60,000 nucleotides of DNA from Malacoraja senta (taxonomy: Eukaryota): positions 622,001 through 682,000 of the forward strand of contig CM075993.1 of the NCBI GenBank assembly GCA_038087875.1. Direction: 5' to 3'. The notes below the pieces were generated by a model, which saw nothing but the letters and a program-made list of their open reading frames with translations, searched no databases and had not been told where the DNA came from. Positions 22,471 to 41,830 of the stretch are shown piece after piece. Position numbers and translations under genes: made by a program. Position 1 is the stretch's first letter. Every line of letters begins with the position of its first letter.

Positions 22471-23489
22471 ATGGTATAATTGAGGAGCTAAAAAAATAGC
22501 ATTTATGAAAAAAACAACAGGAGAAATTCATGGAACGGAAAGTGGATGAATCCCCAGGAGAGGGGATGAAAGGGATGGATGCCCAGGAGCCGACCCTTTG
22601 CTCTTAATTACTCCGTCTGCTGCACCAGCTCCCAGGATTCCTCCCACTCATTGGAGAGGACCTCTTGTTTCAGTCAAGATGGTGGATAGATCCCTCACCC
22701 CTGACTGTGTCCTGCAGTTCTGCTCTCACTCCCCCTTCCCCCACAACCAAGCATACAGTCCCCCAAGTCCTCATCTTTGACCCCACTAGCCTCTGCTTCC
22801 AACACATCATTCTCTGACATTTCCGCAACCTTCAACGTGATCCCACCACCAGTCACTTCTTCCCGTCCCCTCCCTTTTCATGAACCGTCGGTAGATCCTG
22901 GTCCAGCCTCAGCTGGAGCATTGGCACGGGATAGGGAATATTGGAGAGGATGCAGAGAATGTCTGGGATGTGGACCACAGTTACAGGCAGAGATTGGAGA
23001 GACTGGGACTGTTTTAGACAATAGGTGCAGGAGTAGGCCATTCGGCCCTTCGTGCCAGCACCACCATTCAATGTGATCATGGCTGATCTTCCCCAATCAG
23101 TACCCCGTTCCTGCCTTCTCCCCATATCACCTGACTGCTATCTTTAAGAGCCCTATCTAGCTCTCTCTTGAAAGTATCCAGAGAATCGGCCTCCACCGCC
23201 ATCTGAGAGAATTCCACAGACTCACAACTCTCTGTCAGAAAAAGTGTTTCCTCGTCTCCTTTCTAAATGGCTTACTACTTATTCTGAAACTGTGGCCCCT
23301 GGTTCTGGACTTTTGTTTGGAGGCCGAGAGGAGGTAGAGGGCGAGGTCATCTCTGGAGGGAGTGGATGGGGAAAGCAGTGCAGAGTGAGTGGGGTATTTG
23401 AGCAGCTGGCAGTGGGTGGGCAGCGGGCAGTGGGTGGGCAGGGGTGGAGAGTCTGCCCTGGGATGTACTGACCGTTCCATCCTACACAG

Positions 23490-23684
23490 AGTCGCGGGTT
23501 CCGGACAAGCCCAGCTCTCTCCATGTGCGCCCTCTGATCAACCACATCGTGGTGAGCTGGACCCCGCCTGAAGACCAGGACATCGTGGTGAGGGGTTACG
23601 CCATCGGCTACGGCATCGGCAGCCCCCATGCAGAGACCATCCGTGTCGACTACAAGCAGCGTTACTACTCCATTGAGAACCTGG
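23490..23684 (+). CDS. NEO1: Neogenin exon, FNIII-4
   Basis: tacacag|AG TCG...CTG G|gtgag; [65 protein letters not shown]. Confidence 0.96.
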
Positions 23685-23850
23685 GTGAGTGCCCGGACCC
23701 TGGGTGAGTGCCCGGGGGGGGGGGGGGACACGGTATGGTGGGGGGGCCTGGATGGAGGGGAGCATGGGCTGGGGTCTAAGGGTGGGGTAGGTGGGGGCTA
23801 AGGGTCTAAGGGCTGGGCTCCAGGTACTCAGCATTGCGTTTCTCTTCCAG

Positions 23851-23946
23851 AGCCCAACTCTCACTATGTGATCACACTGAAGGCATACAACAAGGTCGGA
23901 GAGGGCATCCCTCTGTACGAGAGTACGGCCACCAGACCACTAACCG
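23851..23946 (+). CDS. NEO1: Neogenin exon, end of FNIII-4
   Basis: cttccag|AG CCC...ACC G|gtaac; [32 protein letters not shown] (read by hand, not in the ORF track). Confidence 0.94.
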
Positions 23947-24819
23947 GTAACAGCACATGATTCCACATGTCTACAGCACACCCTGCCCACCTTGCCAATG
24001 TTCCTCTCAGGCTGCTTGCTCCTTTATAACTAACTCAGTGTTGGCTGCTGGACCTGTTGTCTGCTGGAGTAGTGGGTGGTTGTGTGTAGAGGCTGCTGCT
24101 GCTTCTGCTGCTGGTGACCTCTGGTTCACTGACGAGGCTGCCCCCTCCTCTCCAGCGCGGTGAGGACTGATGCCGGCTTCCCATGCGTGCTCTCCTGGGG
24201 TGTGATTGCTGCTTCCCCCTTCTTCACTCCCCACACACTCAGTACCCTGGCAGCTAGCCACAGGTGTGGATGTGTCTGGGGCACAACTGGGGTCAGTGTG
24301 ACCCTGCCCGTATGGCCCTGCCTGCACCCACGCTGACCGCCCGCCTGGGGATTTCTAGTACCTCGGGGGAATGCTGTGCCAAGCCCTGCGTGAAATCCAG
24401 TATCTCCCTGAATGATCGCAGTAAGTTAATATTCCCAGTCTGTTTATCAATAGTATATTTATAATCACCTGCTCACTAGTTGTTCTCCTTCACACTGCCC
24501 ACAGAGGTAGAGACGTGACAGGAGGCAGAGGGTTGGGACAGGACGTAGGGAGAAAGGGGAGTTGTGGGGAGAGGTGACCTGGGTGACCAGGGTGTCAGTG
24601 ACGGCCATCAGTGGAGATCAGGGTCTAAATTCTCGACCGTGATGTGAGCTCTTCCTGCAATGTCACCCAGTGCCCATGGGCCTTTGGGGTCACAGTGTCC
24701 AGGTCGGTGTCCAGGGTATTGGGACGTATGAACCTGCTGGCTGTTGACTGTCTGGCTGATTCAGTCGTTGCATTAGTCAAGAGTGTGTGCTCTGTGTTTG
24801 GGCCTGCGACCGTTCCAGT

Positions 24820-25810
24820 TGTTGGCTGTGTGTGTGTGTTGGCTGTGTGTGTGTGTGAGTGTGTTGGGTGTGTGGGTGTTGGGTGTGTGGGTGTTGGGTG
24901 TGTGGGTGTGTGAGTGAGTGTGTTGGCTGTGTGTGAGTGTGTTGGGTGTGAGTGTGTGGGTGTGTGAGTGTGAGTGTGTTGGGGGTGTGAGTGTGGGTGT
25001 GTGTTGGGTGTGAGTGTGTTGGGTGTGAGTGTGTTGGGTGTGAGTGTGTTGGGGGTGTGTTGTGTTGGGTGTGTGGGTGTGTGAGTGAGTGTGTTGGCTG
25101 TGTGTGTTGGGTGTGAGTGTGTTGGTGGGTGTGTGTGTTGGGTGTGTGGGTGTGAGTGAGTGTGTGGCTGTGTGTGTTTGGCTGTGTGTGTGGTTGTGTG
25201 TGTGTGTGTGTGTTGGGTGTGAGTGTGTTGGGTGTGAGTGTGTTGGGTGTGTGTGTGTTGGGGGTGTGAGTGTGTTGGGTGTGAGTGTGTTGGGGGAGTG
25301 AGTGTGGTGGGTGTGTGTGTGTTGTGAGTTTGTTGGGTGTGAGTGTGTTGGGGGTGTGAGTGTGTGTGAGTGTTTGGTGTGAGTGTGTTGGGGAGTGAGT
25401 GTGTGGGGGTGTGGTGTGAGTGTGTTGTGAGGTTTGGTGTTGTGAGTTTGTTGGTGTGAGTGTGTTGGGGGTGTGAGTGTGGGTGTGATTGGGTGTGTGT
25501 TGGGTGTGAGTGTGTTGGGGGTGTGAGTGTGGGTGTGTGTGAGTGTGGGTGTGAGTGTGTTGTGAGTGTGTTGGGTGTGTGTGTTGGTGTGAGTGTGGGT
25601 GTGAGTGTGAGTGTGTTGGGGGTGTGAGTGTGGGGTGTGAGTGGGTGTGTGTGAGTGTGTGTGGGTGTGAGTGTTGGGGGTGTGAGTGGGTGTGGCGTGT
25701 GAGTGTGTTGGGGTGTGAGTGTGGGTGTGAGTGTGTGTGTGTTGGGTGTGTGTGTGTTGGGGTGTGAGGTGAGTGTGTGGGGGTGTGGATGTGGGTGTGA
25801 GTGTGTTGTG
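24820..25810. repeat. GT-rich low-complexity repeat
   Basis: gtgagtgtgttgggtgt-type units. Confidence 0.9.
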
Positions 25811-26060
25811 GCCCACGTGGGGAGTGCTAGGTGGGTGAAAGAGCTGTCCTTTGACAGATGAGCGGGTTGTCATGTCTGTACATGGATCGCTTGCTCTAAT
25901 CCGTAACTCTGGCTTTCTTTGTTTCTCCTCCACTTCATCCTCCTGCATCACTGCTTTCCCCACCTCGCTCTGCCTTCTCTTCCCCCTCCTTGCTCAATTC
26001 ACCATTTACTTTTTCACAAACATTGTTTAATTTATCCCTCAAATCCTTTTGACCCTTCAG

Positions 26061-26279
26061 ATGTTTATTTATTTGATCTTTTCAATAATCCATACACTCC
26101 AGTACCAGACCCCAGCCCCATGATGCCCCCGGTTGGTGTACAGGCCACTGTGCTGACCCACGACACCATCCGTGGTTACCTGGGCAGACAGCTCGCTGCC
26201 CAAGAACCAGAAGATCACCGACTCCCGTTCCTACACGGTGCGCTGGAAAACCAACTACCCCGCCAACACCAAGTACAAG
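26061..26279 (+). CDS. NEO1: Neogenin exon, FN4-FN5 linker and FNIII-5 (acceptors at 26061 long / 26103 short; apparent +1 frameshift near 26173)
   Basis: [38 protein letters not shown], then after one extra base [35 protein letters not shown]|gtggg. Confidence 0.88.
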
Positions 26280-26677
26280 GTGGGCTGCCAGCCCCCACCT
26301 GCCTCCCACATCTATGCAGGGTGTGGGGGGGTGGGTGTGGGTGGGTGAGGGGGTGAGGGTGTGGGGGGGGGTGGGGTGGGGGGGTGGCGGGGTGGGGGTG
26401 TGTGGTGTAGGGGTGGGTGTGGGGGGGGTGAGGGTGGGGTGGGGTGTGTGTGAGGGGGTGGGGTGGGGTGTGTGGGGGGTGGGTGAGGGGGTGGGGTGGT
26501 GTGGTGGGTTGTGAGGGGGTGGGGAGTTACAGGGTGGGTGTGGGGTAGGTGGTATGGAGGGTGGATTACGCGGTGGGGGGTGGGGTGAGCCTTTGCCCTG
26601 TGAGGGGCTGGATACCTGGTAAATGTGTTCAGCATTCACCCTGTGCACTGACACTGTAAACATGGTTGCTTCCCCAG

Positions 26678-26816
26678 ATGGCAGACACCAACACGCTGAG
26701 CTACATCGTCTCGGTCCTGAAGCCCAACACTCTCTACGAGTTTTCTGTGAAGGTGACGAAGGGTCGGAGGTTGAGCACCTGGAGCATGACGGCACATGGG
26801 ACCACGTTTGAAACGG
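26678..26816 (+). CDS. NEO1: Neogenin exon, FNIII-5
   Basis: tccccag|ATG GCA...ACG G|gtacg; [46 protein letters not shown]. Confidence 0.95.
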
Positions 26817-27327
26817 GTACGGTACATCAAACACAATGGGGATCAGTGATAGACTAACGTGTTGGAGCTGCCGCACCAGTGTGTGTGGGTATGTGTCCAC
26901 AGCACTGTCCCAGGGGGCGGTGTGTGTGGGTACATGTCCCCAGCACTGTCCCCAGGGGGTGACCGCTCCATTGGGCAGCCCCGCTCCGTCCACTCTGCCC
27001 ATCTAGCCCAGCCATATCATACTAACCTGCCTCCCACTGCCAGGCTCACCACACCACCCTCCACCCCAATGCTGCTGAGAGCCAACTGCAAACTAGAGGA
27101 GCAGCATCCACACTGTTTACAGCTCAATGGTGTGAACATTCAGTAATGTGGTGCGGTGCTGTGTGGTGCGGTGGGACGGCAGGTTATGATGAGCCCGCCA
27201 AAGGGAGTAATTGCCAGCTTCACTGTCTCCCATGAGGCGCGGCACTTTAAACACGGCGCCTCTCTGCACCTCGGTCCACGTGACAGTAATAAACCAGAGT
27301 GCCCTTCGTTTCCCTGCCTATCCGCAG

Positions 27328-27435
27328 TGCCCACATCTCCCCCCAAGGATCTGACCGTGGTCAGCAAGGAGGGCAAGCCCAGAACCATCATCGTCAACTG
27401 GCAGCCACCGTCAGAGGCCAACGGCAAGATAACAG
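27328..27435 (+). CDS. NEO1: Neogenin exon, FNIII-6
   Basis: tccgcag|TG CCC...ACA G|gtact; [36 protein letters not shown]. Confidence 0.96.
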
Positions 27436-27454
27436 GTACTGGGCAGGCTGCACT

Positions 27455-27785
27455 CGGGCATGCTGCACGGGGGCCGGGACAGGCTGCACGGGGGCCAGGG
27501 CAGGATCACTGCGAGCCGGGGCTGGGACAGGTTGCACGGGGGCCGGGACAGGCTGCACGGGGGCCAGGGCAGGATCACTGCGAGCCGGGGCTGGGACAGG
27601 CTGCACGGGGGCCAGGGCAGGATCACTGCGAGCCGGGGCTGGGACAGGCTGCACGGGGGCCAGGGCAGGATCACTGCGAGCCGGGGCTGGGACAGGCTGC
27701 ACGGGGGCCAGGGCAGGATCACTGCGAGCCGAGGCTGGGACAGGCTGCACGGGGCCAGGGCAGGATCACTGCGAGCCGGGGCTGT
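27455..27785. repeat. 48-bp GC-rich minisatellite
   Basis: gcacgggggccagggcaggatcactgcgagccggggctgggacaggct x ~6. Confidence 0.9.
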
Positions 27786-28081
27786 GGGGCTGATGCTCAT
27801 CTGTAACTGCAGTGGATAAACAGGGTCAGCTGGGGGTCAGGGAGTGGCCGCAAGAGACCGGTGGGGTCAGGGTACTGGGCATGGGTAGCAGACAGGGGCG
27901 AGGGAGGGGTGGCTACTGGTAGTGTCGAGGGTGTAGGCTTGTACCCACAGAGGGGCAAGTGGTCAGGAATGTTCGTACTTGTGTCGAGGAGTTGTGCATG
28001 GCGTAAGGTTGGAGGTGGAGCGTGGTTTGGCTGTGCCTGTGAATGGGTGGAATATTGTCTGAGCCGTCTCTCTCTCCACAG

Positions 28082-28276
28082 GCTACATCATCTACTACAG
28101 CACGGACATCAATGCCGAGATCCATGACTGGGTGATCGAACCGGTGGTCGGGGACAGACTCACTCACCAGATCCAGGACCTAACGCTCGACACCACCTAC
28201 TACTTCAAGATCCAGGCCCGCAACTCCAAAGGCATGGGCCCCCTGTCCGAGTTCGTGCAGTTTCGTACGCCGAAAG
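28082..28276 (+). CDS. NEO1: Neogenin exon, FNIII-6
   Basis: tccacag|GC TAC...AAA G|gtgag; [65 protein letters not shown]. Confidence 0.96.
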
Positions 28277-28317
28277 GTGAGGGGCCACTCAGCGATGCAG
28301 CGTGTCTGGGCCACAGC

Positions 28318-28752
28318 CCACGGCAGCAGCAGGGGCCAGTGGACAGCAGCAGGGCCCAGTGGACAGCAGCAGGGAGCCAGTGGACAGCAGCAGGGGGGGG
28401 CCAGTGGACAGCAGCAGGGGCCCACGGCAGCAGCAGGGGCCAGTGGACAGCAGCAGGGGGCCAGTGGACAGCAGCAGGGGCCAGTGGACAGTAGCAGGGG
28501 GCCAGTGGACAGCAGCAGGGGGCCAGTGGACAGCAGCAGGGGGCCAGGTGGACAGCAGCAGGGGGGCAGTGGACAGCAGCAGGGGCCAGTGGACAGCAGC
28601 AGGGGCCAGTGGACAGCAGCAGGGGGCCAGTGGACAGCAGCAGGGGGCCAGTGGACAGCAGCAGGGGGCCAGTGGACAGCAGCAGGGGCCAGTGGACAGC
28701 AGCAGGGGCCAGTGGACAGCAGCAGGGGCCAGTGGACAGCAGCAGGGGCCAG
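28318..28752. repeat. 20-21-bp minisatellite
   Basis: gccagtggacagcagcagg(g)n x ~20. Confidence 0.9.
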
Positions 28753-31700
28753 TAGGCTGTGGACCGAGCATCAACAATGTGTCTAGAAATCGATTTCCGT
28801 GACCCACGTCACGGAACTACCTGACATTTCCCACAGATTGAGATGAAATATAATTGAGAAGGAAGACATAACTCGTCAGTGCCAAACGTTGCACATTAAT
28901 TAATTAAACTAATTAGAAAATGAGATCGTGAACGTAAGCGTCATCTAGTGGCCAATGCCCATATTACACCATGGGCAGCCTATTTCCATGTTGCAGTCCA
29001 TTTAAACTATATATTATTATACCTATATATATATGACGTAAATATGACTGTAATCATATATAATTAAGTATAATTATATTATATAAAAATAATATGAATA
29101 TAATTGTGAGTGTTTTTAATGACACTGTCGCAGAGGTCCTGCTCCTGAACCAGCCTAATTAATGGGTGAGGGCAGTTCTTGTGGGTTCCTCCCTTTACTG
29201 AACCCCACTGACTGCCAGTGTGCAGAGTGGGGGGCACCGCCATAGTGGGACTGGGGCAGTTCCAGGCTGGGGGACAGTCCAGCAAGGCATCTTCCAGTCG
29301 CTTTAATAGGAAATGTAATGAGACTGTAGCAGAGGTCCCAGGTTTTAAGGCTCATGAACCTGCCTAATTAAAGGGTCAGGACAGATCCTCTGGGTTCCCC
29401 CGTTTACTGAACCCTACTCACTGCCATAGTGGGGAGAGTGGGGGTAACGGCCATAGTGGGACTGGGGCAGTGCCAGACCTGTAAGAGACCTGTCTTATTT
29501 CTGATGTAAATGTCACATCCTGACCAAGAATCGAATGCTCTGATGTTCACTCGATGAGTATTCATTTTAAGCTACAATGAGCCTATATTTATGTTAGAGA
29601 CCCCCCCCCCCCCCCCCCGATGGTGCCTTTGCAAATGAGGGCTATTACCTTTAACCTAAAATAACCCTAAAAGTGTTGCATTGTTTGAGTGTGTGTGGAT
29701 GGGTGGGTGGACTGTCGCACTGTCATTCACCAGCACGCCATTATCATAAGTAATTCACTCATTGTTTAAATAATTTGACCAAATAAACAGTGAAACGATA
29801 GACATTAAAATAAAACTTTATATAATCATTTATTTCCCCAATTTATTTGTTTACATTACATCTGATCTTCATCTGAATATTCTTCATCAGATTCCAAGTC
29901 TTTTGATAAGTTTTGATAAGTCCATTGATAAGTTAGTTCAAGTTCAGGGTCAGGCAGAGGCTACAAAAAACCCCATCTCATAGTCATTAACTCTGCATGG
30001 ACTTCAATTCATAAAATGTCAACCTCTTCTTAATGTTAATGAGAATAACACTGTTACTACCATAGATAAATTAGTTCAAGTTCACATACACCAATTCATT
30101 TCTACATAAACATCAGCCATTTCTGACCATTTCTCACTCCAATGGAAACCTATAAAGTGCAGTCAATATCCCTCCGTTTTCCTCCCGTGGTCGAGGCCTG
30201 GAAACGGCCGCTACGGACGGCACTATGTACAGCCTCCCCGCCCGCGGAGAAGAACCAAACACACTCTGTGGCTCCGCGTTCGCGAATCGGACGCTTTTTA
30301 ATTGAGACCGCGGCTTCATTATGTTAAGTACATAGGCCCGGTAAGTTAACGCAGGCAGCTCCGAGAATAGATTTTAAAGAAAACTTATTAGACTTCAACA
30401 AGCTGGCATTAGAGAAAATGTTTAATGTACTTTGTTATGGATACACATAGTTTAGGCCCTCAACTTCATGAATGAACGAGTGAATGAATGAATGAATGAG
30501 TGAGTGAGTGAATGAGTGAATGAATGAGTGAATGAGTGAATGAATGAATGAATGAGTGAATGAATGAGTGAATGAATGAATGAATGAATGAATGAGTGAA
30601 TGAATGAATGAATGAATGAATGAGTGAATGAATGAATGAATGAATGAGTGAGTGAGTGAGTGAATGAGTGAATGAATGAATGAATGAATGAATGAATGAA
30701 TGAATGAATGAATGAATGAATGAGTGAATGAATGAATGAATGAATGAGTGAATGAGTGAGTGAATGAATGAATGAGTGAATGAATGAGTGAATGAGTGAA
30801 TGAATGAATGAATGAATTAGTGAATGAATGAATGAATGAGTGAATGAATGAATGAATGAATGAATGAGTGAATGAATGAATGAATGAATGAGTGAATGAG
30901 TGAGTGAATGAATGAATGAGTGAATGAATGAGTGAATGAGTGAATGAATGAATGAATGAATGAGTGAATGAATGAATGAATGAATGAATGAGTGAATGAA
31001 TGAATGAATGAATGAATGAGTGAATGAATGAATGAATGAATGAGTGAGTGAGTGAATGAGTGAATGAATGAATGAATGAATGAATGAATGAATGAATGAA
31101 TGAGTGAGTGAATGAATGAATGAATGAATGAGTGAATGAATGAGTGAATGAATGAATGAATGAATGAATGAGTGAATGAATGAATGAATGAATGAATGAG
31201 TGAATGAATGAATGAATGAATGAATGAATGAGTGAGTGAATGAGTGAGTGAATGAGTGAGTGAATGAGTGAGTGAATGAGTGAGTGAATGAGTGAATGAG
31301 TGAGTGAATGAGTGAATGAGTGAGTGAATGAATGAATGAATGAATGAATGAATGAGTGAATGAATGAATGAATGAATGAATGAGTGAGTGAGTGAATGAA
31401 TGAATGAATGAATGAATGAATGAATGAATGAATGAATGAATTAGTGAATGAATGAATGAATGAGTGAATGAATGAATGAATGTACAGCCTCCAAATCTCA
31501 TTTTTTCACATTATAAAAGGGTGCAATTAAATTAATTAAAGTCCATACAGATTAATTTTCATAAATTCAGACTTGAGATCTTACCTTTCAGTTCCAGTTG
31601 ATTCACAAAGTTTGAGTGGTTTCACAACTTTGTGTTGCAGCACCTCAGCCTGGGGACTTTGCTTTCAAGGCTTTGTTCCACTTCTATCCACTTAGCTGCA

Positions 31701-32036
31701 CATTCTTCAGACTTCTTAATGCTTTTCTCACTAAATTCAATTACCCTGCTGCAAGTTTCCACGACATGTATTCCACAGAACAACAAAGAACCTTCATCGG
31801 AATTTCCAGTAAAACAGGCATCAGTAGAAGCACTCTCAGCCATGATGTGTGCTCCTTGCCTAGCTAGCCTGAAACAAAGCGTTTTTTCTCTAATTTAATA
31901 AAAATGTGCAAGTTTTGTTCTTGACGAGTTTCAGGGATGATTTATATCATAGTTTTACACAATATGCGAAAATTTCATGTAGTTCTGTGAGTTGGGTCAC
32001 GAAACTGCACAAAAAGGCTCCTCGGCCCACAGCCTA
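28753..32036. mobile_element. Non-autonomous DNA transposon, Academ-like (TAG...CTA termini, 3-bp TSD)
   Basis: Left end TAGGCTGTGGACCGAG vs reverse complement of right end TAGGCTGTGGGCCGAG; sub-terminal IR TTCCGTGACCCACGTCACGGAACTAC / GTAGTTCTGTGAGTTGGGTCACGAAA; TSD CAG (28750-28752, 32037-32039); AT-rich interior. Confidence 0.8.
30468..31481. repeat. ~1 kb (TGAA)n/(TGAG)n tetranucleotide microsatellite inside the DNA transposon
   Basis: Direct observation. Confidence 0.95.
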
Positions 32037-32118
32037 CAGTGACTGGTTGTATTTCTGATTATCCTTACGTTGGATTGAAGTGCTTTTGATGTTCTCCCTG
32101 GTGTGTCTGACCCGTTTG

Positions 32119-32151
32119 CTGAGTCAGCAGACAAAGTGGCTCATGACCGAG
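32119..32151 (+). CDS. NEO1: Neogenin alternative juxtamembrane micro-exon (33 nt by homology; 24 or 21 nt if the CAGCAG acceptors are used)
   Basis: (A)ESADKVAHDR G|gtgatt resembles the mammalian 11-aa cassette ADSSDKMPNDQ; symmetric phase 1; preceded by TG, not AG. Confidence 0.7.
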
Positions 32152-32811
32152 GTGATTGCTCTGCTTCTTGTGATTGGTCACCACTCACTCATCTTGTGCT
32201 GTTTCACTCCACAATCCTTTGATCTTTGGACTTTCAGTGTGAACCAGTGTTGTCAGCTCAGTGCTGGGGGCTTGGTGACTCTCTCCCCCAGCCTCACATC
32301 TTTTATTCCCAGACATTCCTTGAGTTGTTACCCAAGGCCCAGACGTTTGTCTCGGTGAGGCCTGGTACCAGGTGGTCAGCACAGGGTCTGGTGTCCGCAT
32401 CTGAACGGGATGAACGCACTGCGTCCCTTGGCAGTGGGAGAGTCTAGGACCAGAGGCCACAGCCTCAGAATAAAAGGACGTACCTTTAGAAAGGAGATGA
32501 GAAGGAACTGCTCTGTGGTTTGGAGACCGAGAGCTGGCCAAGGATGGTCACGTTCGTTCTTCCTTCCCACACCTGACTATTGCACAAATACCCAGTGAAC
32601 CAACAGTGCCATTCAGCAAGGAACTGGGCAGCAATGGGCGCTGGCACCCGGCTGGCACTGGAACACCGAGCCGACCTTGGCTAATGGTGCCTGAGGCAAG
32701 TTTGTCCATTCCTCACTCTGCCCCCGTCTGTGTGCCGGGGCGGTGTAGTTCGTTGTCCCAGTGCATCCTGCCTGTCTGTGTGTGTGTTCACCCATCTCTG
32801 TCTCTTTACAG

Positions 32812-32886
32812 CGCCAGGATCTGGCAAACTCGGCAAACACCCGCCATCCATGGACTTGGGCACCGACACGCGGCACTCCATCGGTG
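32812..32886 (+). CDS. NEO1: Neogenin juxtamembrane exon
   Basis: tttacag|CG CCA...GGT G|gtgag; (A)PGSGKLGKHPPSMDLGTDTRHSIG, similar to ASGSGGKGSRLPDLGSDYKPPMSG. Confidence 0.85.
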
Positions 32887-33183
32887 GTGAGTAGCAGTCA
32901 CCTTCTCTCCCCCTGGACCCAGCCCCTCACCACTCTCCTCGCACAGCCCCTCTCAACCCACACACCGCCCCTTCTCCCCAGTGACCTCATGACCTCCAGT
33001 GACCTCACGATCTCCAGTGACCTCATGACCTCACGACCAGTGACCTCACGATCTCCAGTGACCTCACCACCTCGTGACCTCGCATCCCTCGGTGACCTCC
33101 CGACCCCGCTGTGACCCTGCATCCCCCGGTGCCCCCCGTCCTGTGATCCTGCCCCCCCCTCACGGCCGATGTTTCGCCCACAG

Positions 33184-33328
33184 GTCATAGCCCCCACGGC
33201 AGCCCCACCTCCACCCTGGACAGCAACATCATGCTGATCATCATCATCTCTGTTGGGGTCTTCACCATCATCATGGTGGTCATCATCGCCTTCATCTGCA
33301 CCCGCAGGACCAACTACCAGCAGAAGAA
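33184..33328 (+). CDS. NEO1: Neogenin transmembrane exon
   Basis: cccacag|GT CAT...AAG AA|gtgag; [48 protein letters not shown]. Confidence 0.95.
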
Positions 33329-33513
33329 GTGAGCCGGTGGGGTGGGTGGGGGTGGGGGTGGGGGTGGGGTGGGCATGCGGTGGGTGGGGGTGGGGGTGGG
33401 GTTGGCATGCGGTGGGTGGGGGTGGGGTGGGCATGCGGTGGGTGGGGGTGGGGTGGGTACCGTACATAAGCGCGCGGCCTCCTGCACTCACTCCCGCTGC
33501 CCCTCCCCTGCAG

Positions 33514-33746
33514 GAAGCGAGCTGCTTGTAAAGCTGCCAACGGATCCCACAAGTACAAAGGCAACTCGAAGGATGTGAAGCCCCCAGACCTGTGGATCCA
33601 CCACGAACGTCTGGAGCTGAAGCCCATCGACAAGTCCCCCGATCCCAACCCCGTCATGACCGACACCCCCATTCCCCGCAATTCCCAGGACATCAGCCCT
33701 GCGGACAACGTGGACAAAGAGCACACGCGCAGGAACTCTTACCTGG
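33514..33746 (+). CDS. NEO1: Neogenin cytoplasmic exon, P1 motif
   Basis: cctgcag|G AAG CGA...CTG G|gtcag; [62 protein letters not shown]. Confidence 0.96.
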
Positions 33747-34031
33747 GTCAGTCATGGCCACGTGACCCCTCTCCCCCACCCTGGGGTGACAGACGGGTCT
33801 GTGGGTGCCGGGTGGACCCGGGTGAGGGAAGTGGGTGGAGATGGGTGGTTGGGAAGGAGAGAGCGAGGGTGGGTAGGTGGGAGAGAGGGTGGGTGGGTGT
33901 GAGGGTGGGTGCGAGGGTGGGTGCGAGGGAGAGAGGGATTGTGGGTGCGAGGGTGGGTGGGTGGTTTCTGTGCCGGCTCTGCCCGGTTGTGCTGGCTGGA
34001 GTTGTGGGGTGACGGCTGCTTGTGTTCACAG

Positions 34032-34124
34032 GTCGGGAGCAGGAAGACGGCGTGTCATCTCTGAGCAGTCGGCGGGGACTGCGACCCAAGATCATGATGC
34101 CCTTCGATGCTCAGCCTCCACAGC
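34032..34124 (+). CDS. NEO1: Neogenin cytoplasmic exon
   Basis: ttcacag|GT CGG...CAG C|gtacgt; [31 protein letters not shown]. Confidence 0.93.
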
Positions 34125-34224
34125 GTACGTCAGCTGCTTCTTCACTCCCCGGGGTGATGTTCATGCAGAGCGAGCGGGCGGTGAGGGTCTGTCCCCCCAG
34201 AGCGAGAGGGTCACCCACCACCCC

Positions 34225-34445
34225 TCCCTGACCCATGACCACTCCATGACCCCTCCCTGACCCATGATGCCTCCCTGACCCATGACCCCTCCCTGACCCA
34301 TGACCCCTCCCTGACCCATGACCCCGCCCTAACCCATGACCCTTACGGACCCATGACCCCTCCCTGACCCACAACCCTAATGTAACCAGTCAGCGCCTCC
34401 CTGACCCACGACCCCTCGCTGACCCACAGACTCCGTCCCGACCCA
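34225..34445. repeat. 18-bp minisatellite
   Basis: ccctccctgacccatgac repeats. Confidence 0.85.
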
Positions 34446-35640
34446 TGGTCTCGGGGGAAACCCCCTCTCTGTCTGATGACCCCTCCCCCAGCGTTAGGTC
34501 ACCCAGGAGGGCAGCACCACTCACACACACCACATCCCCACATAGTCCGTCTCCACAAATCCCTCTCCATTCATTCCAAAATCACCCGTAGTTGTAAATC
34601 TGTTCAGTGCAATCGAAAGAAATAGATCGTTGATGCCAAATATTTCAGGTCAAAATTCACTGGAAAGTTTCCAACATATTCGGAGAATTTCTATCACGTT
34701 ATTTTAAATGCAGACTCAGGTTTCATTAACATTGTGGAGGTATAATTAATGATAGGACATTGACCAGACCGTGCTGCTGCTGTCTGCTCCCACTGTCACT
34801 GATCACGGGCGTACTTTACTAAAACGTGTTCGGATAACTAACGATCGTGCTGTCAGCTGTTTAAATCCATTTTGTCTGTGGCTTCTGTTGGCTGATAAGC
34901 TGCAAACTCCATTCCAGTCGTGCGTGTTGTGTGTGCGCGTGCGTGCGTGCGAGTGTGTGTGTGACTGCGATTTAAAACGTCTCCAAATAATGACCGTAGC
35001 TAAGGAGATGACAGCAAGCCTCAGTGTGGGGGAAGAAAGGCAGCCTGCAGCAAGCAGTCTGGACACCTGTGAGGACCCTGAGTAGTGTTGTAGAGCAGAG
35101 GGATCTAGGAGTGCAGGTACATAGTTCCCTGAAGGTGGAGTTGCAGGTAGATAGCGTGGGCAAATAGGCTTTCGACACATTGGCCTTCATCAGCCAGAAT
35201 GTTTATAGAACTTGGGAGGTTATGTTGCAGTTGTATAAGATGCTGGTGAGGCCGCATTTACAGTATCATAGAAACATATTGTGGTCAGTTCTGGGCATTG
35301 TATTATGGGAAAGATGTTGTCAAGCTGGAAAGGCCCAGCTTGACATCACCCCAGACGTGGCACCCAGACGTGGGTCCCTGCGTTTTTTGGAAATAGTTCC
35401 ATGAGATTTAGTTCTGAGCAAGGGAGAGGCAGACAGGGCCTTGGTGTAAGGAGAGGTGGAGTGATGGGGATTGAGTTGGGCACCAGCAGGTCTGCAGGCA
35501 CTGTGCGGGCATGGGATTGGAACGGTGGTGTGTCTGGGGTGTGGATGTTGCTTTGACTGTGTCTGGGGCAGTGGGTGGAGTCTGGATCGCTGCAATCAGC
35601 TCTGTGTATGAAGTGCTCTCTGTGTTATGTTCATTCACAG

Positions 35641-35790
35641 CTGTGATTAGTGCCCATCCCATCCATTCACTCGACAACCCTCATCATCATCACCACTGTG
35701 ACGGGCCTTCCTCCCCAACCCGCAGCTACCTCCGCCACCAGATGGCCGCCCGCCCACTCGCCTCTTCATTAGACAGGGCCAATTCCACAG
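35641..35790 (+). CDS. NEO1: Neogenin alternatively spliced His-rich cytoplasmic cassette exon
   Basis: ttcacag|CT GTG...ACA G|gtgag; (P)[49 protein letters not shown]; 150 nt, symmetric phase. Confidence 0.93.
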
Positions 35791-36467
35791 GTGAGACCTG
35801 GCAACGCAAGTCAGCCGCAGCCGCAGCCGCAGCCCAGCACGCGGGCTAGGTGAACCCTGGGCTGAACACAGCGTTGGCCTTTAAACTCTGAGGGGCTACC
35901 GAGCTTGACGTGTTTGTGGAGCGGAGGGAACGGTGGGGAGAGGAGGGGAACAGTGGCGGCATCTCCTGTGTGGCAGTAGATAGTAAACGGACAGGAGGAG
36001 AGGGGAGAGATTGAGACCACAGGCGGGGAGAGATGGAGTCATGACTCCAATCCAAGGAAGGATCGGATGGGTCACTGTTAGTGCAGCTCATGTGTTCAAA
36101 GATTGAGGGTGATACGAGCAAAAAGTGGAGTCATTATTGTGACAGTTTATTGGGAAATGTTCACAGACGTCTGGACCAGGGAGAAAGAGCGATGTCAACA
36201 GAACAAGAGGAGGGAGTGTGTGTGGTGCACTGCGGGACCACTGCTGCATTGTAGACTGGGTGGGGTGTACGGATACAAGGATGGCAGAGTGGGGCACTGG
36301 GCTGGGAGTGGGGATCTCACCCGCATGTCCTGCTGGGACGGTCACACCCCCTCCTTTTGAAACTTTGGTTCTGCTTTGGATTTTCTGGATTAAATTGTTG
36401 CTGACAAACGGTGGTTTAGTTGAAAGGTTTCAGTGTACAGGCATGGCACCCTCTGTGTGCAGCTCTG

Positions 36468-36712
36468 CTCTCCCAGTTACAGGCGGAGACTCTGCTCCCA
36501 ATTACAGGCGGAATCTCTCCCAGTTACAGGCAGAGTCTCTCCCAGTTACAGGCGGAGACTCTCCCAGTTACAGGCGGAGTCTCTGCTCCCAATTACAGGC
36601 GGAGACTCTCCCAGTTACAGGCGGAGTCTCTCCCAGTTACAGGCAGAGTCTCTCCCAGTTACAGGCAGAGACTCTCCCAGTTACAGGCGGAGTCTCTCCC
36701 AGTTACAGGCGG
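36468..36712. repeat. 23-26-bp minisatellite
   Basis: ctctcccagttacaggc(g/a)gag(a/t) x ~10. Confidence 0.88.
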
Positions 36713-36777
36713 AGCTGAGGATTGTGGACGGCTTGGCTTGTGTCTGGAGTGCTGACCTTTGACCCTTTGTGTTCCAG

Positions 36778-37035
36778 AATCGGTACGGAACACCCCGAAC
36801 AGCGACATGTCTCCAGCATTGAGCTCACAGACTCACACCGTGGACAGCCTGGAGACGGACGTGCCGAGCGTCACCTACCTGCCCGGCTCACAGGACGAGG
36901 ACTCTAACCGCAGCGTCCCCACTGCCCATGTCCGCCCCTCACACCCTCTCAAGAGCTTTGCGGTCATCGCCATCCCTCCGGCCAGCACCGGCTACGAGGC
37001 AGCCTCATCCAGCACACCACTGTTGGCCCAGGCGG
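36778..37035 (+). CDS. NEO1: Neogenin cytoplasmic exon, P2 motif
   Basis: gttccag|AA TCG...GCG G|gtgag; ESVRNTPNSD...VPTAHVRPSHPLKSFAVIAIPP...STPLLAQA. Confidence 0.94.
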
Positions 37036-37398
37036 GTGAGTGAGGGCAGAGCCAGAGGCACTGGCACCGTTTCTGGCCCCACAGCCACTGGAGTTCTAAA
37101 CCCTCGCTTACAGCAGCGCAGCGGGTGGAGCCGCTGCCACACAGCTCCAGTGACCTCCAATGCTGTCTGTGTGGTGTTTGCACGTTCTCTCTGTGAGCTC
37201 CGATTTCCTCCCACATCTCAAAGACGAGCGGACTGATTAGAGAATTAGCCGCTGTAATTTGCTGCCAGTGTGTGGGTGAGGGGTGGAATGTGATTAGTGG
37301 CCAGCACAGACTTTGTGGGCCGAATGTTCACTGCCTTATCCTCAATAACAAGGCTGGGTCATCTATAATGTAACAATAAATTAAATTAAAATACTTTG

Positions 37399-37670
37399 TA
37401 GTTTAGAGATACAGCGCAGAAATAAGCCCTTGTGACCACTGATTCCTCGCCGACTAGCGATCACCTGGGCACTAGTTCTACCCTGAGCACCAGGGACAAT
37501 TATCCAACTAACCTCCACGTCTTCGGAATTTGGGAGGAAACCGGAGCACCTGGAGAAAACCCACATGGTCACAGGGGGGAACATACAAGCTCCACACAGA
37601 CAGCACCTGTAGTCAGGATTGAACCCGGGTCGCTGGCGCTGTTAGGCAGCAACTCTACCGCTGCGCCACC
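37399..37670 (-). mobile_element. tRNA-derived V-SINE (HE1-like)
   Basis: Same head, V-domain and tail as 16757-17052; older copies at ~7770-7935 (-), ~37110-37330 (+), ~53865-54120 (+). Confidence 0.75.
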
Positions 37671-37892
37671 GAGTTGCCATCTTACCATGGGCTCATGGAC
37701 TAGACTGACTCGTGCCTAGTGAGTTTGTCTAGACTGGGCAGGTGTGGCAGACTACTGGACAGACCTCTCACTTGTTAAGAATGTCCCAATCTTCCAATCT
37801 ACCTCATTGCAGCCTAGCGCTTGTTTTATCTGCCCTTTGTGACTGTAAGACTATGATCTGCTCTGCTTATTCTTCTCTTTGCACAACCTTTT

Positions 37893-38720
37893 GTGACAAC
37901 CTTTTCGGACTCAATCAAAATGATAGCAGGCAGCCTTGGAAGCCTTACCCCACTACTCAAACCTCATGTCAAAAACCTTGGCGTGATATTTGACTCAGCA
38001 CTGAAATTTGACAAACAAGTCAATGCCATGGTAAAAGCTAGCTTCTTTCAGCTTCGGACGATAGCTAAAATAAAACAATTCCTCCAGTTTGATGACCTTG
38101 AAAAGATCATCCACACATTCATCTCCTCCCGCCTAGATTACTGCAACTCCCTTTACACTGGCATCAGCCAATCTTCCCTGTCCCGCCTGCAACTGGTCCA
38201 AAACGCCGCAGCGAGACTCCTGACGGGCACCCGAAAAAGGGACCACATCACCCCGATCCTGGCCTCTCTCCACTGGCTCCCTGTGCGGTTCCGTATAAAC
38301 TTCAAGATCCTCCTCCATGTCTACAAAGCCCTCAATGGGCTTGCCCCCACCTACATAAAAAGTCTTCTCACCCACCACTCCACCTCCAGGCCCCTCAGAT
38401 CGGCCGACTTGGGGTTGCTGAATATCCCGCGGTCTAGGCATAAGCTCATGGGCGACCGTGCCTTTGCGGTTGCAGCCCCTAGACTGTGGAACAGCATCCC
38501 CTTTCCCATCAGAACTGCCCCCTCCATCAACTCTTTTAAGTCAAGACTAAAGACTTATCTATACTCCCAAGCCTTTCCTGACGTCCTCTGAATGAGGGCT
38601 ACATGTATATATGTGTGTAGTTTGTTTTGTTTGTGCTATTCTTATAACAAATGTAAAGCACTTTGGCCAACGAGAGTTGTTTTTTAAATGTGCTATATAA
38701 ATAAATGTGACTTGACTTGA
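37893..38720 (+). mobile_element. 5'-truncated L2-clade LINE (C-terminal ORF2 and 3' UTR)
   Basis: KNLGVIFDS...SRLDYCNSL...LQLVQNAAARLL...HITPILASLHWLPV; tail ATAAATAAATG(TGACT)n. Confidence 0.9.
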
Positions 38721-38803
38721 CGACTTTTATAGTCAAGTTTGATGTGATTTGAATAGATAGCAAGCAAAACAAGGTTTTTCACTAAATCGGTACAATAATA
38801 AAG

Positions 38804-39207
38804 CACTGCCCAGTCCATCATCGGCTCCGACCTCCCCACCATCGAAGGGATTTATCGCAGTCGCTGCCTGCCAACATCATCAAGGACCCACACCATCCTG
38901 GCCACACACTCATCTCTCCGCTGCCATCAGGTAGAAGGTACAGGAGCCTGAAATCTGGTACATCCAGGTTCAGGAACAGCTTTTTCCCCACAGCCATCAG
39001 GCTATTAAACTCGCCATCAAACATACTCTGAACTATAACAGCCTATTGCACTTTATCTGTTTATTTTTGTGTATATATATGGTCTATGCTATATAGACAC
39101 ACTGATCTGTTCTGTATTTATGCTTACAATACTCTGTTGTGCTGAAGCAAAGCAAGAATTTCATTGTCCTATCTGGGACACATGACAATAAACTCACTTG
39201 ACTTGAC
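38804..39207 (+). mobile_element. Rex1/Babar LINE 3' fragment
   Basis: Translates to AQSIIGSDLPTIEGIYRSRC..IIKDPHHPGHTLISPLPSGRRYRSLKSGTSRFRNSFFPTAIRLLN; ends ACAATAAACTCACTTGACTTGAC. Confidence 0.8.
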
Positions 39208-39303
39208 AATATCAATATTGGTTTATGGATTGTGAATGTTTATCTAATGTTGGAAGATGTGAGGGAAGTTGTGCTAAAGCTGTGACGTGGTGTTCCACTG
39301 CAG

Positions 39304-39440
39304 GGGCCAACCCTCAGGTGCACTCGGTGAAGACGGCATCCATAGGAACATTGGGTCGTAGCCGTTCCCCGATGGCTGTCACCGTGCCCAGTGCCCCAGA
39401 CGTGGCTGAATCTGCCAAGATGCTGGACGACACCGACACT
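39304..39440 (+). CDS. NEO1: Neogenin cytoplasmic exon
   Basis: actgcag|GG GCC...GAC ACT|gtaggt; [46 protein letters not shown]. Confidence 0.93.
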
Positions 39441-40321
39441 GTAGGTTTGCTGCTGGCTCCTCGCCTCTGCTCTGTCTCTGCTCTGCTCTTCCCTTCCCCA
39501 CACCTCACCGGATCAAACTTTCACCTTTATTTTCAGGTGTTGGTGTTCATCGATTTTGCTCAATCCACCCAAACATCTCACCTTTAAAAAAATATTTAAA
39601 CACTTTTTCTTATTCCTATAACTAGCCTTTCGCTTTCACTCCCATACCTCTCATTTCTTAATCGCTGGCATTGGTGAATACATCAGCGTCCCCCGAGCCT
39701 GGTTCACCTTTCAGTCAGCGCCCTGTGATCTGTCACCTCCCAACAGATCCCCCCACCACCACCCACCTGAAGAGCCTTATCCCTTACACAAACCTTACCC
39801 TGACACTGTGCCTTCCAGGTCATGACTCTCCAGACTATAGGAGCGAGCCGGTGGAGGCCATTTGGTCCCTTGATGTTGTTCTGCCATTGAACAATGGCTG
39901 ATCTTCCGTCCCAAGAGGGAGAAACCTCTCAGTCCCTTCCTTGATCTCATGCTTCAGTGACTTGTGTAGGCTTGTTACACCCCTACGCTGGGGAGTCATG
40001 GGGACCATCACCATCACTGATTGAGTCTCCCCCCCCCCCCTGCCTCACTCGGATCCTGAGCTGATTCAGAGTCCCTGAAGGGGCTGGTGATTTCCTGCAA
40101 CATGGAGGAAGAATCAGGGAGTGGAGATCAGGCAATCACAGCTTCTGTAAGTGTTTGCAGCTTTGTCCCTCTGGGACAATGCCTGGACACCACTCACAGG
40201 TCTGTCCCTGTGAAAGACCCTCACTCAAACTGAGCCATCCTTTAACACAACCTGTTCCCTTAGATGGTCTTAGCCTGAGTAGAGACGGGCCAACACAATA
40301 ACCTGCTGCCTCTTTTTGCAG

Positions 40322-40405
40322 AACTACAGCCCAGATGAGCTGAGTGAAGAAATGGTGCACCTCACGGGCTTAATGAAGGATCTCAACGTTATTACCACAG
40401 CATAG
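40322..40405 (+). CDS. NEO1: Neogenin last coding exon, P3 motif and stop
   Basis: tttgcag|AAC TAC...[33 protein letters not shown], matching the neogenin C-terminus (GLMKDLNAITTA). Confidence 0.95.
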
Positions 40406-41830
40406 ATCGGAGTTCCATCAGTCACTCAAACTGAAACCGGAGCGGGTGTGCGCAAGTACACAAGACTCCCGGAGGGCCGACTGCAACATGACGTCATGTG
40501 TTAAGTCTCGTGGGAAATGCCTTTGTCACAATTTCAGTCCAGTGGATCCAGACTTGTGGATGTCATGCAAATCCAATCAAGGCCTTGGAATCTGATGAGC
40601 CTAGACTCTGATGGACCCCTGCTGGTTTGGAAATGTACTGCAGGTACCGATATAGTGTTGGACATTCGATATCGTCTATTTACTGCGTGTTTACATTGTT
40701 GGTGTTATAAAGAGAATGTTGAATTGTTACTTTGGCATCCAGATGTGACATTTGACCGCCTCACCATCAGCTGGTGTAAGATGCTTCAATAACATGGCCA
40801 TTTCCTGCTTCCTGCGCATCGCACTCAGACTGCAACAAAACTGCCACCGTATCCGCACTCATCACTGTGATCTGTCAGCAATTCCTGCTGGACTTGGCAA
40901 GTTCGCTGATTAAAGCACAATTAGAAAGATGCAACCAGCACAATCTATCCACAAAGAGGCTCGGCAACACTCAAAGCACATTGGTTTAAGCAAACGTGTG
41001 CAGCAACTGACATTTTATATGAAGACTGTCTTTATGTATTCTACTGGAGAATCATTTAGCCGTAAGGAGAAAGATAAGCTCGCCCTACCCCGGGGTTTGC
41101 TTGCACGATCTTTATTAAACCTATCAGTGAGTTTTGATTATATAGCCAGCATTAAACCCTCAAATCCAGTTTGAGTTCCTGCCCTCATTAATTGTGTTGT
41201 GGGTAGGTTTCAGTTACTTGCCCTCAGTGGACTGGGCTGAACTGGTCCCAGGTATATGGATCTCAAACTAATCCCATCAATCTGCTTCTGATGAGGTTAC
41301 ATGTTAAACCATATATGGGTTCAGTTACAGGAAGCTCTCTCCATCTCATTCTCCCCATATCATTGTACTTGCTTCGTTCTACAGTCATGGTTTTACTATG
41401 TTTGTGAATATTGCTCCCTATGTACATCACCATGAATGTTAATATAACTGTTTAAGGAAATTTATTGTAATGAATATAACTGAACGAAGCTGTTGTGAAA
41501 GTTTAGAGAACATGCCCCCTGTTGTAGGCAGTCAGATCTGTTTTGCACTTTTTCCATCTTTTACAAAGAACCTTTTTCTTTCTGGCCTGTGTTCAGAATT
41601 GGTAAACCTCTGGTGTACTTCTGTAGTGTCTTCATTAGCAAAAGCAACTTCTGTTTCCACGGACACAGAAGGTGCAGATTGTTTATTAATCACGATTGTA
41701 GAAATGATGCAAACTACTGTAGTTTTATGTACAAAGAACTTTGCTAGTAGCATACTTAGTGGCTTTTTTTAAACTTCATGTTCTAATGTAATATTGGAAT
41801 TCCAATACATTTTGTATTCAACCAATAGGA
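40406..41830 (+). other. NEO1: Probable NEO1 3' UTR (3' end uncertain)
   Basis: Repeat-free, AT-rich sequence after the stop; only non-canonical poly(A) hexamers seen (ATTAAA ~41114/41151, AATACA 41804-41809). Confidence 0.45.

What the first reader, a model, noticed from the sequence alone, without database searches (positions are those of the whole stretch)
32105..32212. Hidden NEO1 micro-exon with TG at the homologous acceptor, tandem CAGCAG alternatives and a downstream YCAY cluster
Seen: ctgacccgttTG|CT GAG TCA GCA GAC AAA GTG GCT CAT GAC CGA G|gtgatt gives exactly 33 nt (AESADKVAHDR), the length of the mammalian 11-aa cassette ADSSDKMPNDQ, but only if TG is the acceptor. In-frame AG options give 24 nt (32128) or 21 nt (32131). 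A UGC lies ~10 nt before the first CAG, typical of SRRM3/4-dependent micro-exons. Six YCAYs at 32178-32212 occupy the NOVA-enhancer position. This is the second alternative NEO1 site with the same TG / CAG-9-nt-downstream geometry, while all constitutive acceptors are AG. Rare TG acceptors beside an AG are documented in vertebrates; two in one gene would be notable.
Basis: partly seen in the sequence, partly recalled or inferred. Interest (0 to 1): 0.7.

Follow-up and report, generated by a model that had tools for sequence, protein, structure and literature searches.

The report
Decaying neogenin mini-exon in a skate
In a skate's neogenin gene, a tiny exon shared by most jawed vertebrates has TG where a splice signal normally reads AG and has changed two otherwise invariant amino acids, so it is likely a dying exon rather than a rare working splice site.

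Summary
The sequence is as described. TG precedes a 33-nt in-frame segment (32119-32151, AESADKVAHDR) that is the orthologue of the vertebrate neogenin 11-aa cassette. A read-derived contig matches it letter for letter, so TG is not an assembly slip. Six YCAYs follow (4 of 2000 shuffles). (1) The exon looks released from selection. All 96 orthologous inclusion peptides have Met7 and Gln11; the window has Val and Arg. That is 2 of 5 invariant residues changed, against 0 of 301 elsewhere in the gene (p about 2e-4, post hoc). (2) The 'second TG site' is not one. Its homologous acceptor lies 9 nt further upstream and reads AA, and the closest skates' models use the downstream CAG (14-aa instead of 20-aa linker). 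The UGC is the TG itself. Best reading: a known cassette exon that likely lost its AG and is decaying (0.62). Rescue by the downstream CAG is 0.24, a working TG acceptor 0.09. No RNA from this species was available, so splicing was not observed.

The parts
28082..28276 (+). Upstream constitutive exon (FN6 domain, ends ...FRTPK + G), GT donor, phase 1
   Evidence: tblastn with shark, ray and skate neogenins; boundaries
32107..32111 (+). CTGAC branch-point-like motif; its A is 8 nt from the TG and 17/20 nt from the two CAGs. A weaker TTGAT has its A 29 nt before the TG
   Evidence: role inferred
32117..32118 (+). TG at the homologous acceptor position (likely a lost AG); the same bases form the 'UGC'
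   Evidence: identical in X1 contig
32119..32151 (+). 33-nt remnant of the 11-aa cassette exon, AESADKVAHDR; Val codon 32136-32138 and Arg codon 32148-32150 replace invariant Met and Gln
32121..32130 (+). Exon-internal AGs: GAG (28 nt, frameshifting), CAG (24 nt), CAG (21 nt); the CAGCAG lies in the S-A-D codons, a peptide also seen in Rhinoraja, chimaera and coelacanth
32152..32157 (+). Intact donor GAG|GTGATT
32178..32212 (+). Cluster of six YCAY motifs 27-61 nt after the donor
   Evidence: 4 of 2000 and 8 of 2000 shuffles
32812..32886 (+). Downstream constitutive exon (APGSGKLGKHPP...), CAG acceptor
26041..26042 (+). AA at the position of the acceptor for the 20-aa FN4-FN5 long form of other cartilaginous fishes
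   Evidence: base not checked in reads
26050..26060 (+).

Best explanation
This is the skate copy of the vertebrate neogenin 11-amino-acid cassette exon, and it carries TG at its acceptor position; that TG likely replaced an ancestral AG, so the exon is likely skipped and its sequence is likely drifting. Shown: position, length, phase, peptide homology, the TG in reads, and two replacements at invariant residues. Inferred: the ancestral AG (no orthologous DNA was obtained), skipping (FN6 exon 28276 joined to 32812, giving the common short isoform), and that the GT donor and YCAY cluster are leftovers of the old regulation. How far the loss extends among hardnose skates is unknown.
For: All 96 in-register inclusion peptides among 321 proteins covering the junction are 11 aa with Met7 and Gln11; the window has Val and Arg (isoforms are not independent). 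2 of 5 invariant residues changed in the exon against 0 of 301 in 22 other exon pieces, Fisher p 2e-4; 2 of 6 vs 2 of 508 at 95% conservation, 2 of 7 vs 3 of 550 at 90% (post hoc). The skate Rhinoraja longicauda includes AESADKMAHDQ in 8 of 9 RefSeq models; Amblyraja radiata in 0 of 8, Leucoraja erinacea in 0 of 1 and two Logan-derived proteins in 0 of 2. The window differs by fewer residues from Amblyraja and Leucoraja than from Rhinoraja. NEO1 is absent from two human catalogues of non-AG acceptors (with RYK and SMARCA4 found as controls), which implies AG in human. Human AG>TG mutants do not splice at TG. The same gene lost another alternative acceptor (AA at 26041-26042).
Against: No RNA of this species was examined, so skipping is not observed. 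Absence from RefSeq models is weak: the fetched sets of Scyliorhinus torazame (0 of 10), S. canicula (0 of 5), Heptranchias (0 of 7), Heterodontus (0 of 5), Pristiophorus (0 of 4), Narcine (0 of 3) and others also lack the exon. Counting all sites, 2 of 11 vs 38 of 974 differences from Rhinoraja is not significant (p 0.07). The donor, frame and a non-random YCAY cluster persist. The test rests on two changes.
Confidence: 0.62

Rival explanations
1. Acceptor shift: after the AG was lost, the exon is still included through the internal CAG at 32125-32127 or 32128-32130, giving a 24- or 21-nt micro-exon (8 or 7 aa).
For: The same thing appears to have happened at the FN4-FN5 linker of this gene: 14-aa long form in 6 of 8 Amblyraja models and 1 of 1 Leucoraja model, 20 aa in 7 of 9 Rhinoraja models. 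CTGAC lies 17 and 20 nt before the CAGs. AG>TG mutants activate neighbouring AGs. The donor and YCAY cluster are kept.
Against: Both replaced invariant residues lie inside the shortened exon. No 7- or 8-aa form in 321 proteins. The pyrimidine share before the CAGs is 0.60 and 0.55, at the low end of this gene's 0.55-0.85 (four of those 20 starts were off by one base). A frameshifting GAG comes first.
Confidence: 0.24
2. Working TG-AG tandem acceptor: the downstream CAG defines the intron and the TG 9 nt upstream is used for exon joining, keeping 11 aa.
For: TG is real. The layout TTG + 9 nt ending in AG matches RYK, SMARCA4, FBXL10 and HNRPR in Szafranski's table. TG gives exactly the orthologous length. 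An alternative GG acceptor derived from an ancestral AG is reported for BANP.
Against: The length match follows from homology and says nothing about use. Szafranski found no working TG site with an AG orthologue and says AG>TG mutants never spliced at TG. Efficient TG sites sit in strongly conserved context, while this exon's invariant residues have changed. +1 is C, not the preferred purine. The claimed second site is not TG. In-frame TGs near an AG occur at 17 of 20 ordinary acceptors.
Confidence: 0.09
3. Assembly error or a private allele: the species normally has AG here.
For: The assembly likely has errors elsewhere: the constitutive exon 26103-26279 is 177 nt and shifts frame near 26174. 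X1 may be the same individual as the assembly.
Against: The X1 contig matches 31998-32307 with no difference at full depth. The Val and Arg codons lie in the same contig, so three separate changes are present.
Confidence: 0.05

Closest known systems
Neogenin (NEO1) 11-aa cassette exon between FN6 and the membrane (by my count from the gene's end, exon 21)
   Same: Position, 33 nt, symmetric phase 1, peptide (9 of 11 identical to Rhinoraja; mouse ADSSDKMPNDQ is in the PDB 4bq6 construct).
   Different: TG instead of a canonical acceptor, and Val/Arg for invariant Met/Gln; inclusion not shown.
TG-AG tandem acceptors of U2 introns (Szafranski 2007, PMC2374985: RYK, SMARCA4, GNAS)
   Same: Genomic TG with T at -3 and a CAG 9 nt downstream, within the 28-nt limit.
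   Different: Those are transcript-supported and often conserved, with no AG orthologues found. Here there is no transcript support, the TG is likely derived from AG, and the exon shows decay.
Evolutionary splice-site shift or loss (described as a routine class in the TOGA2 preprint, 10.64898/2026.06.30.735536)
   Same: A non-AG dinucleotide at the homologous acceptor with an in-frame AG nearby; matches the FN4-FN5 site directly.
   Different: At the micro-exon the evidence favours loss over shift.
NOVA-regulated Neo1 exon 26/27 (53 aa, cytoplasmic; PMC2014790, PMC4930328)
   Same: Same gene, YCAY clusters; that silencer cluster is present here across the acceptor at 35641.
   Different: It is a different exon. 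In mouse Nova double knockouts, other Neo1 alternative regions were not significantly altered in dorsal spinal cord (PMC4930329).

Membership tests
NEO1 11-aa cassette exon orthologue | 33-nt, phase-1 symmetric segment between the FN6 exon and the stalk exon, with homologous peptide | tested here: met
NEO1 11-aa cassette exon orthologue | Invariant Met7 and Gln11 kept | tested here: not met
   96 of 96 orthologous peptides keep them; the window has Val and Arg
NEO1 11-aa cassette exon orthologue | Included in some transcripts | not testable with these tools
   no RNA run of this organism listed
TG-AG tandem acceptor | TG is genomic, not an error or a masked AG allele | tested here: met
   X1 contig identical, single form at depth 31.4; one individual, perhaps the source sample
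TG-AG tandem acceptor | Partner AG within 28 nt | tested here: met
   AGs 5, 9 and 12 nt downstream; the feature is common
TG-AG tandem acceptor | Transcripts spliced at the TG | not testable with these tools
   no RNA of this organism
TG-AG tandem acceptor | TG conserved in orthologues, with no orthologous AG | tested here: inconclusive
   no orthologous DNA obtained; human NEO1 missing from both catalogues suggests AG there
SRRM3/4-type microexon | Length 3-30 nt (definition in PMC12626420) | tested here: not met
   33 nt; only the unproven 24/21-nt forms would qualify
SRRM3/4-type microexon | UGC plus UC-rich tract directly upstream | tested here: inconclusive
   the UGC is the TG|C itself; 10 of 20 ordinary acceptors have TGC within 20 nt
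NOVA-enhanced exon | YCAY cluster downstream of the alternative exon (position rule recalled) | tested here: met
   six YCAYs, 4 of 2000 shuffles
NOVA-enhanced exon | Inclusion depends on NOVA | not testable with these tools
   mouse knockout passage reports no change in other Neo1 regions

The most novel reading that the evidence does not exclude
A skate lineage turned the AG of a conserved neogenin cassette exon into TG, and the spliceosome still uses it, held in place by the exon-internal CAGCAG and a NOVA cluster: a young TG-AG tandem born from an AG, which the 2007 human survey found no case of.
Probability: 0.09. Interest if true: 0.6.

Novelty: new member of a known kind. Interest (0 to 1): 0.2.

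Why it matters
Modestly. The exon is known and acceptor loss or shift is a known evolutionary process. The new facts are lineage-level: in this skate, two alternative acceptors in neogenin's extracellular part have changed. One likely killed the 11-aa cassette; the other shortened the long FN4-FN5 linker from 20 to 14 aa. Linker length there sets the netrin complex's architecture in the paralogue DCC (as summarised in PMC4930328 and PMC4930329). A skate lacking the cassette would be a natural knockout of an exon kept from chimaera to mammals. If TG were used after all, it would show how rare TG acceptors arise.

Tried and rejected
No whole genome is held. No RNA holder listed for this organism. 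RNA-like contigs X22 (organism C) and X18 (organism not given) hold 32810-32888 only, with nothing laid on the micro-exon and no joint 32151->32812; contigs drop rare forms and the upstream exon was outside the stretch, so this is not used as evidence. DNA run X7 (organism C) has no cover at 32059-32156; a hole proves nothing. Its low-depth contig over 32181-32476 has 17 other letters, against 20 over 32480-32926, with the letters not shown, so YCAY conservation could not be read. A degenerate motif of the exon found 0 stretches in metagenome contigs. A search of shorter proteins gave 9 hits, none from a skate with the exon. The representative-protein search gave FN6 read-through ORFs that say nothing on the acceptor. 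An 8-bp hairpin (32114-32132) covers TG and both CAGs and depends on T at 32117. It is not unusual (z -0.89; z 0.67 for the wider region), and many ordinary acceptors also fold paired, so it was dropped. No Rfam match in 23000-41000. No inverted repeat in 25850-26320 to support editing of the AA site. Earlier findings: none. Literature searches for skate + neogenin + splicing gave 0 papers; neo1 + microexon gave 3 with single mentions. Supplement file 1 of PMC4176328 could not be searched, and the supplements of PMC2374985 and of the preprints were not seen.

Full report
Setting. The window holds the 3' two-thirds of a neogenin (neo1) gene on the + strand. Its FN6 exon matches shark and ray neogenins at 95-100%. 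tblastn maps the exons from about 2970 to 40405. The translation differs by fewer residues from Amblyraja radiata and Leucoraja erinacea than from Rhinoraja longicauda, so this is likely a hardnose skate. All 20 acceptors mapped from 9391 to 40322 are CAG and all 20 donors GT. No whole genome was available.

Observation. TG is at 32117-32118, followed by 33 nt to a GT at 32152. Six YCAYs lie at 32178-32212; 4 of 2000 dinucleotide shuffles of the downstream intron and 8 of 2000 of its first 150 nt reach that density. Only two other such clusters exist in the gene span, both in exons. A 310-nt contig of run X1 covers 31998-32307 without a difference at depth 31.4. X1 may be the sample that was assembled, so this rules out a consensus slip but not a private allele.

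What the segment is. Of 321 neogenin proteins that cover this junction, 96 carry an in-register insert. All 96 are 11 aa long with Met at 7 and Gln at 11, from chimaera and coelacanth to mammals; none is 7 or 8 aa (the 150 hits were left out, and isoforms of one species are not independent). The window reads AESADKVAHDR; the skate Rhinoraja reads AESADKMAHDQ. So this is the known cassette, one of the mouse splice regions cited in PMC4930329 and present in the PDB 4bq6 construct. By my count from the gene's end it is exon 21. [quoted passage not shown]

Sign of decay. I aligned 93 of the 96 inclusion proteins (3 short ones dropped) and asked how often the window departs from invariant columns. 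In 22 exon pieces outside the cassette, 0 of 301 invariant residues differ; inside it, 2 of 5 do (Fisher p 2e-4). At 95% and 90% conservation the counts are 2 of 6 vs 2 of 508 and 2 of 7 vs 3 of 550. Two of the five columns are invariant by my selection rule, which only weakens the test. The test was chosen after seeing the changes and rests on two residues; over all sites the excess is not significant (2 of 11 vs 38 of 974, p 0.07). Both changes would be translated whichever acceptor is used, so they count against selected inclusion by TG and by CAG alike. RefSeq models include the exon in 8 of 9 Rhinoraja isoforms and in 0 of 8 Amblyraja and 0 of 1 Leucoraja isoforms. This is weak, because many sharks' model sets also lack it (for example Scyliorhinus torazame 0 of 10, Heptranchias 0 of 7).

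Was it AG before? Not seen directly: the relative's DNA run had no cover there and a motif scan found nothing. Indirectly, NEO1 is not in Table 1 of Szafranski 2007. Nor is it in the searchable supplements of Parada 2014, where RYK and SMARCA4 are found (file 1 not searchable). That automated models in so many species include the exon also suggests a canonical site (my inference). Szafranski further states that human AG>TG mutants always activated neighbouring AGs, and that no working TG site had an AG orthologue. Parada gives one counter-example of a non-AG (GG) acceptor derived from AG, in BANP.

The 'second TG site'. In other cartilaginous fishes the long form starts three codons earlier (DPFDPS..., 20 aa; 16 aa from the same start in chimaera). 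That places the acceptor at 26041-26042, which reads AA here. Amblyraja (6 of 8 models) and Leucoraja (1 of 1) have a 14-aa long form that matches the window from the CAG at 26058-26060; no model starts at the TG. So this site is an acceptor loss with a shift to AG, and the claim of two TG sites falls. The geometry is also ordinary: 17 of 20 acceptors have an in-frame TG within 27 nt.

Regulatory motifs. The UGC is the TG|C itself, so it cannot support both readings, and 10 of 20 ordinary acceptors have one nearby. At 33 nt the exon is outside the 3-30 nt microexon definition of PMC12626420. The YCAY cluster is real and sits where NOVA enhancers act (position rule recalled). The documented NOVA target in Neo1 is the cytoplasmic exon 26/27, whose cluster is present here near 35641. 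Other Neo1 regions did not change in mouse Nova double-knockout spinal cord. The cluster may be a leftover or may still drive some inclusion; I could not tell.

Mechanism and verdict. Most likely the acceptor AG was lost, the spliceosome joins the FN6 exon to the stalk exon, and the 33 nt drift (0.62). Second, the internal CAG took over, as at FN4-FN5 (0.24). A working TG acceptor is possible but has no support beyond geometry (0.09). An error or private allele is unlikely (0.05). None of these was observed in RNA. The finding is a real, lineage-level change in a known exon and a new member of a known kind; interest 0.2.

Papers seen: PMC2374985, parts 1-4 of 6 of the text; PMC4176328, passages and searches of supplement files 2-3; PMC2014790, PMC4930329, PMC4930328, PMC12626420, 10.1101/2024.10.15.618524 and 10.64898/2026.06.30.735536, passages only; all others, search listings only. 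I found no paper on skate neogenin splicing, in a library that lacks most subscription journals.

Noticed in passing
window 26041-26102: The acceptor for the 20-aa FN4-FN5 long form reads AA, and Amblyraja and Leucoraja models use the CAG 18 nt downstream, giving a 14-aa linker insert: an apparent hardnose-skate acceptor shift in the netrin-binding linker. Insert length in the fetched proteins is mostly 20 aa in sharks and rays, 19 in teleosts, 16 in amniotes and chimaera.
   Followed up: partly
window 26103-26279 (near 26174): The constitutive FN5 exon is 177 nt and shifts frame by one extra base; likely an assembly error, since 0 of 301 invariant residues are changed elsewhere. Not checked in reads.
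   Followed up: no
window 33184-33195: The exon lacks the Asn codon of GHNSP that the other skates have (reads GHSP).
   Followed up: no
window 35631-35696: YCAY cluster spanning the acceptor of the 150-nt cytoplasmic alternative exon, the layout described for the conserved NOVA silencer of Neo1 exon 26/27.
   Followed up: partly
window 25930-26017: Seven YCAYs in a long AG-free, pyrimidine-rich stretch (180 nt without AG) upstream of the FN4-FN5 alternative acceptors, recalling the intron-16 cluster that controls Dcc long.
   Followed up: no
window 32432-32507 and 31520-32036: High-copy repeat fragments flank the single-copy island that holds the micro-exon (very high summed contig depth).
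   Followed up: no
window 23947-23960: Two Logan-derived proteins (P0138, P0140) end in GNST, the read-through of the intron after the FN4 exon, identical to the window: retained-intron transcripts or genomic ORFs in a close relative.
   Followed up: no
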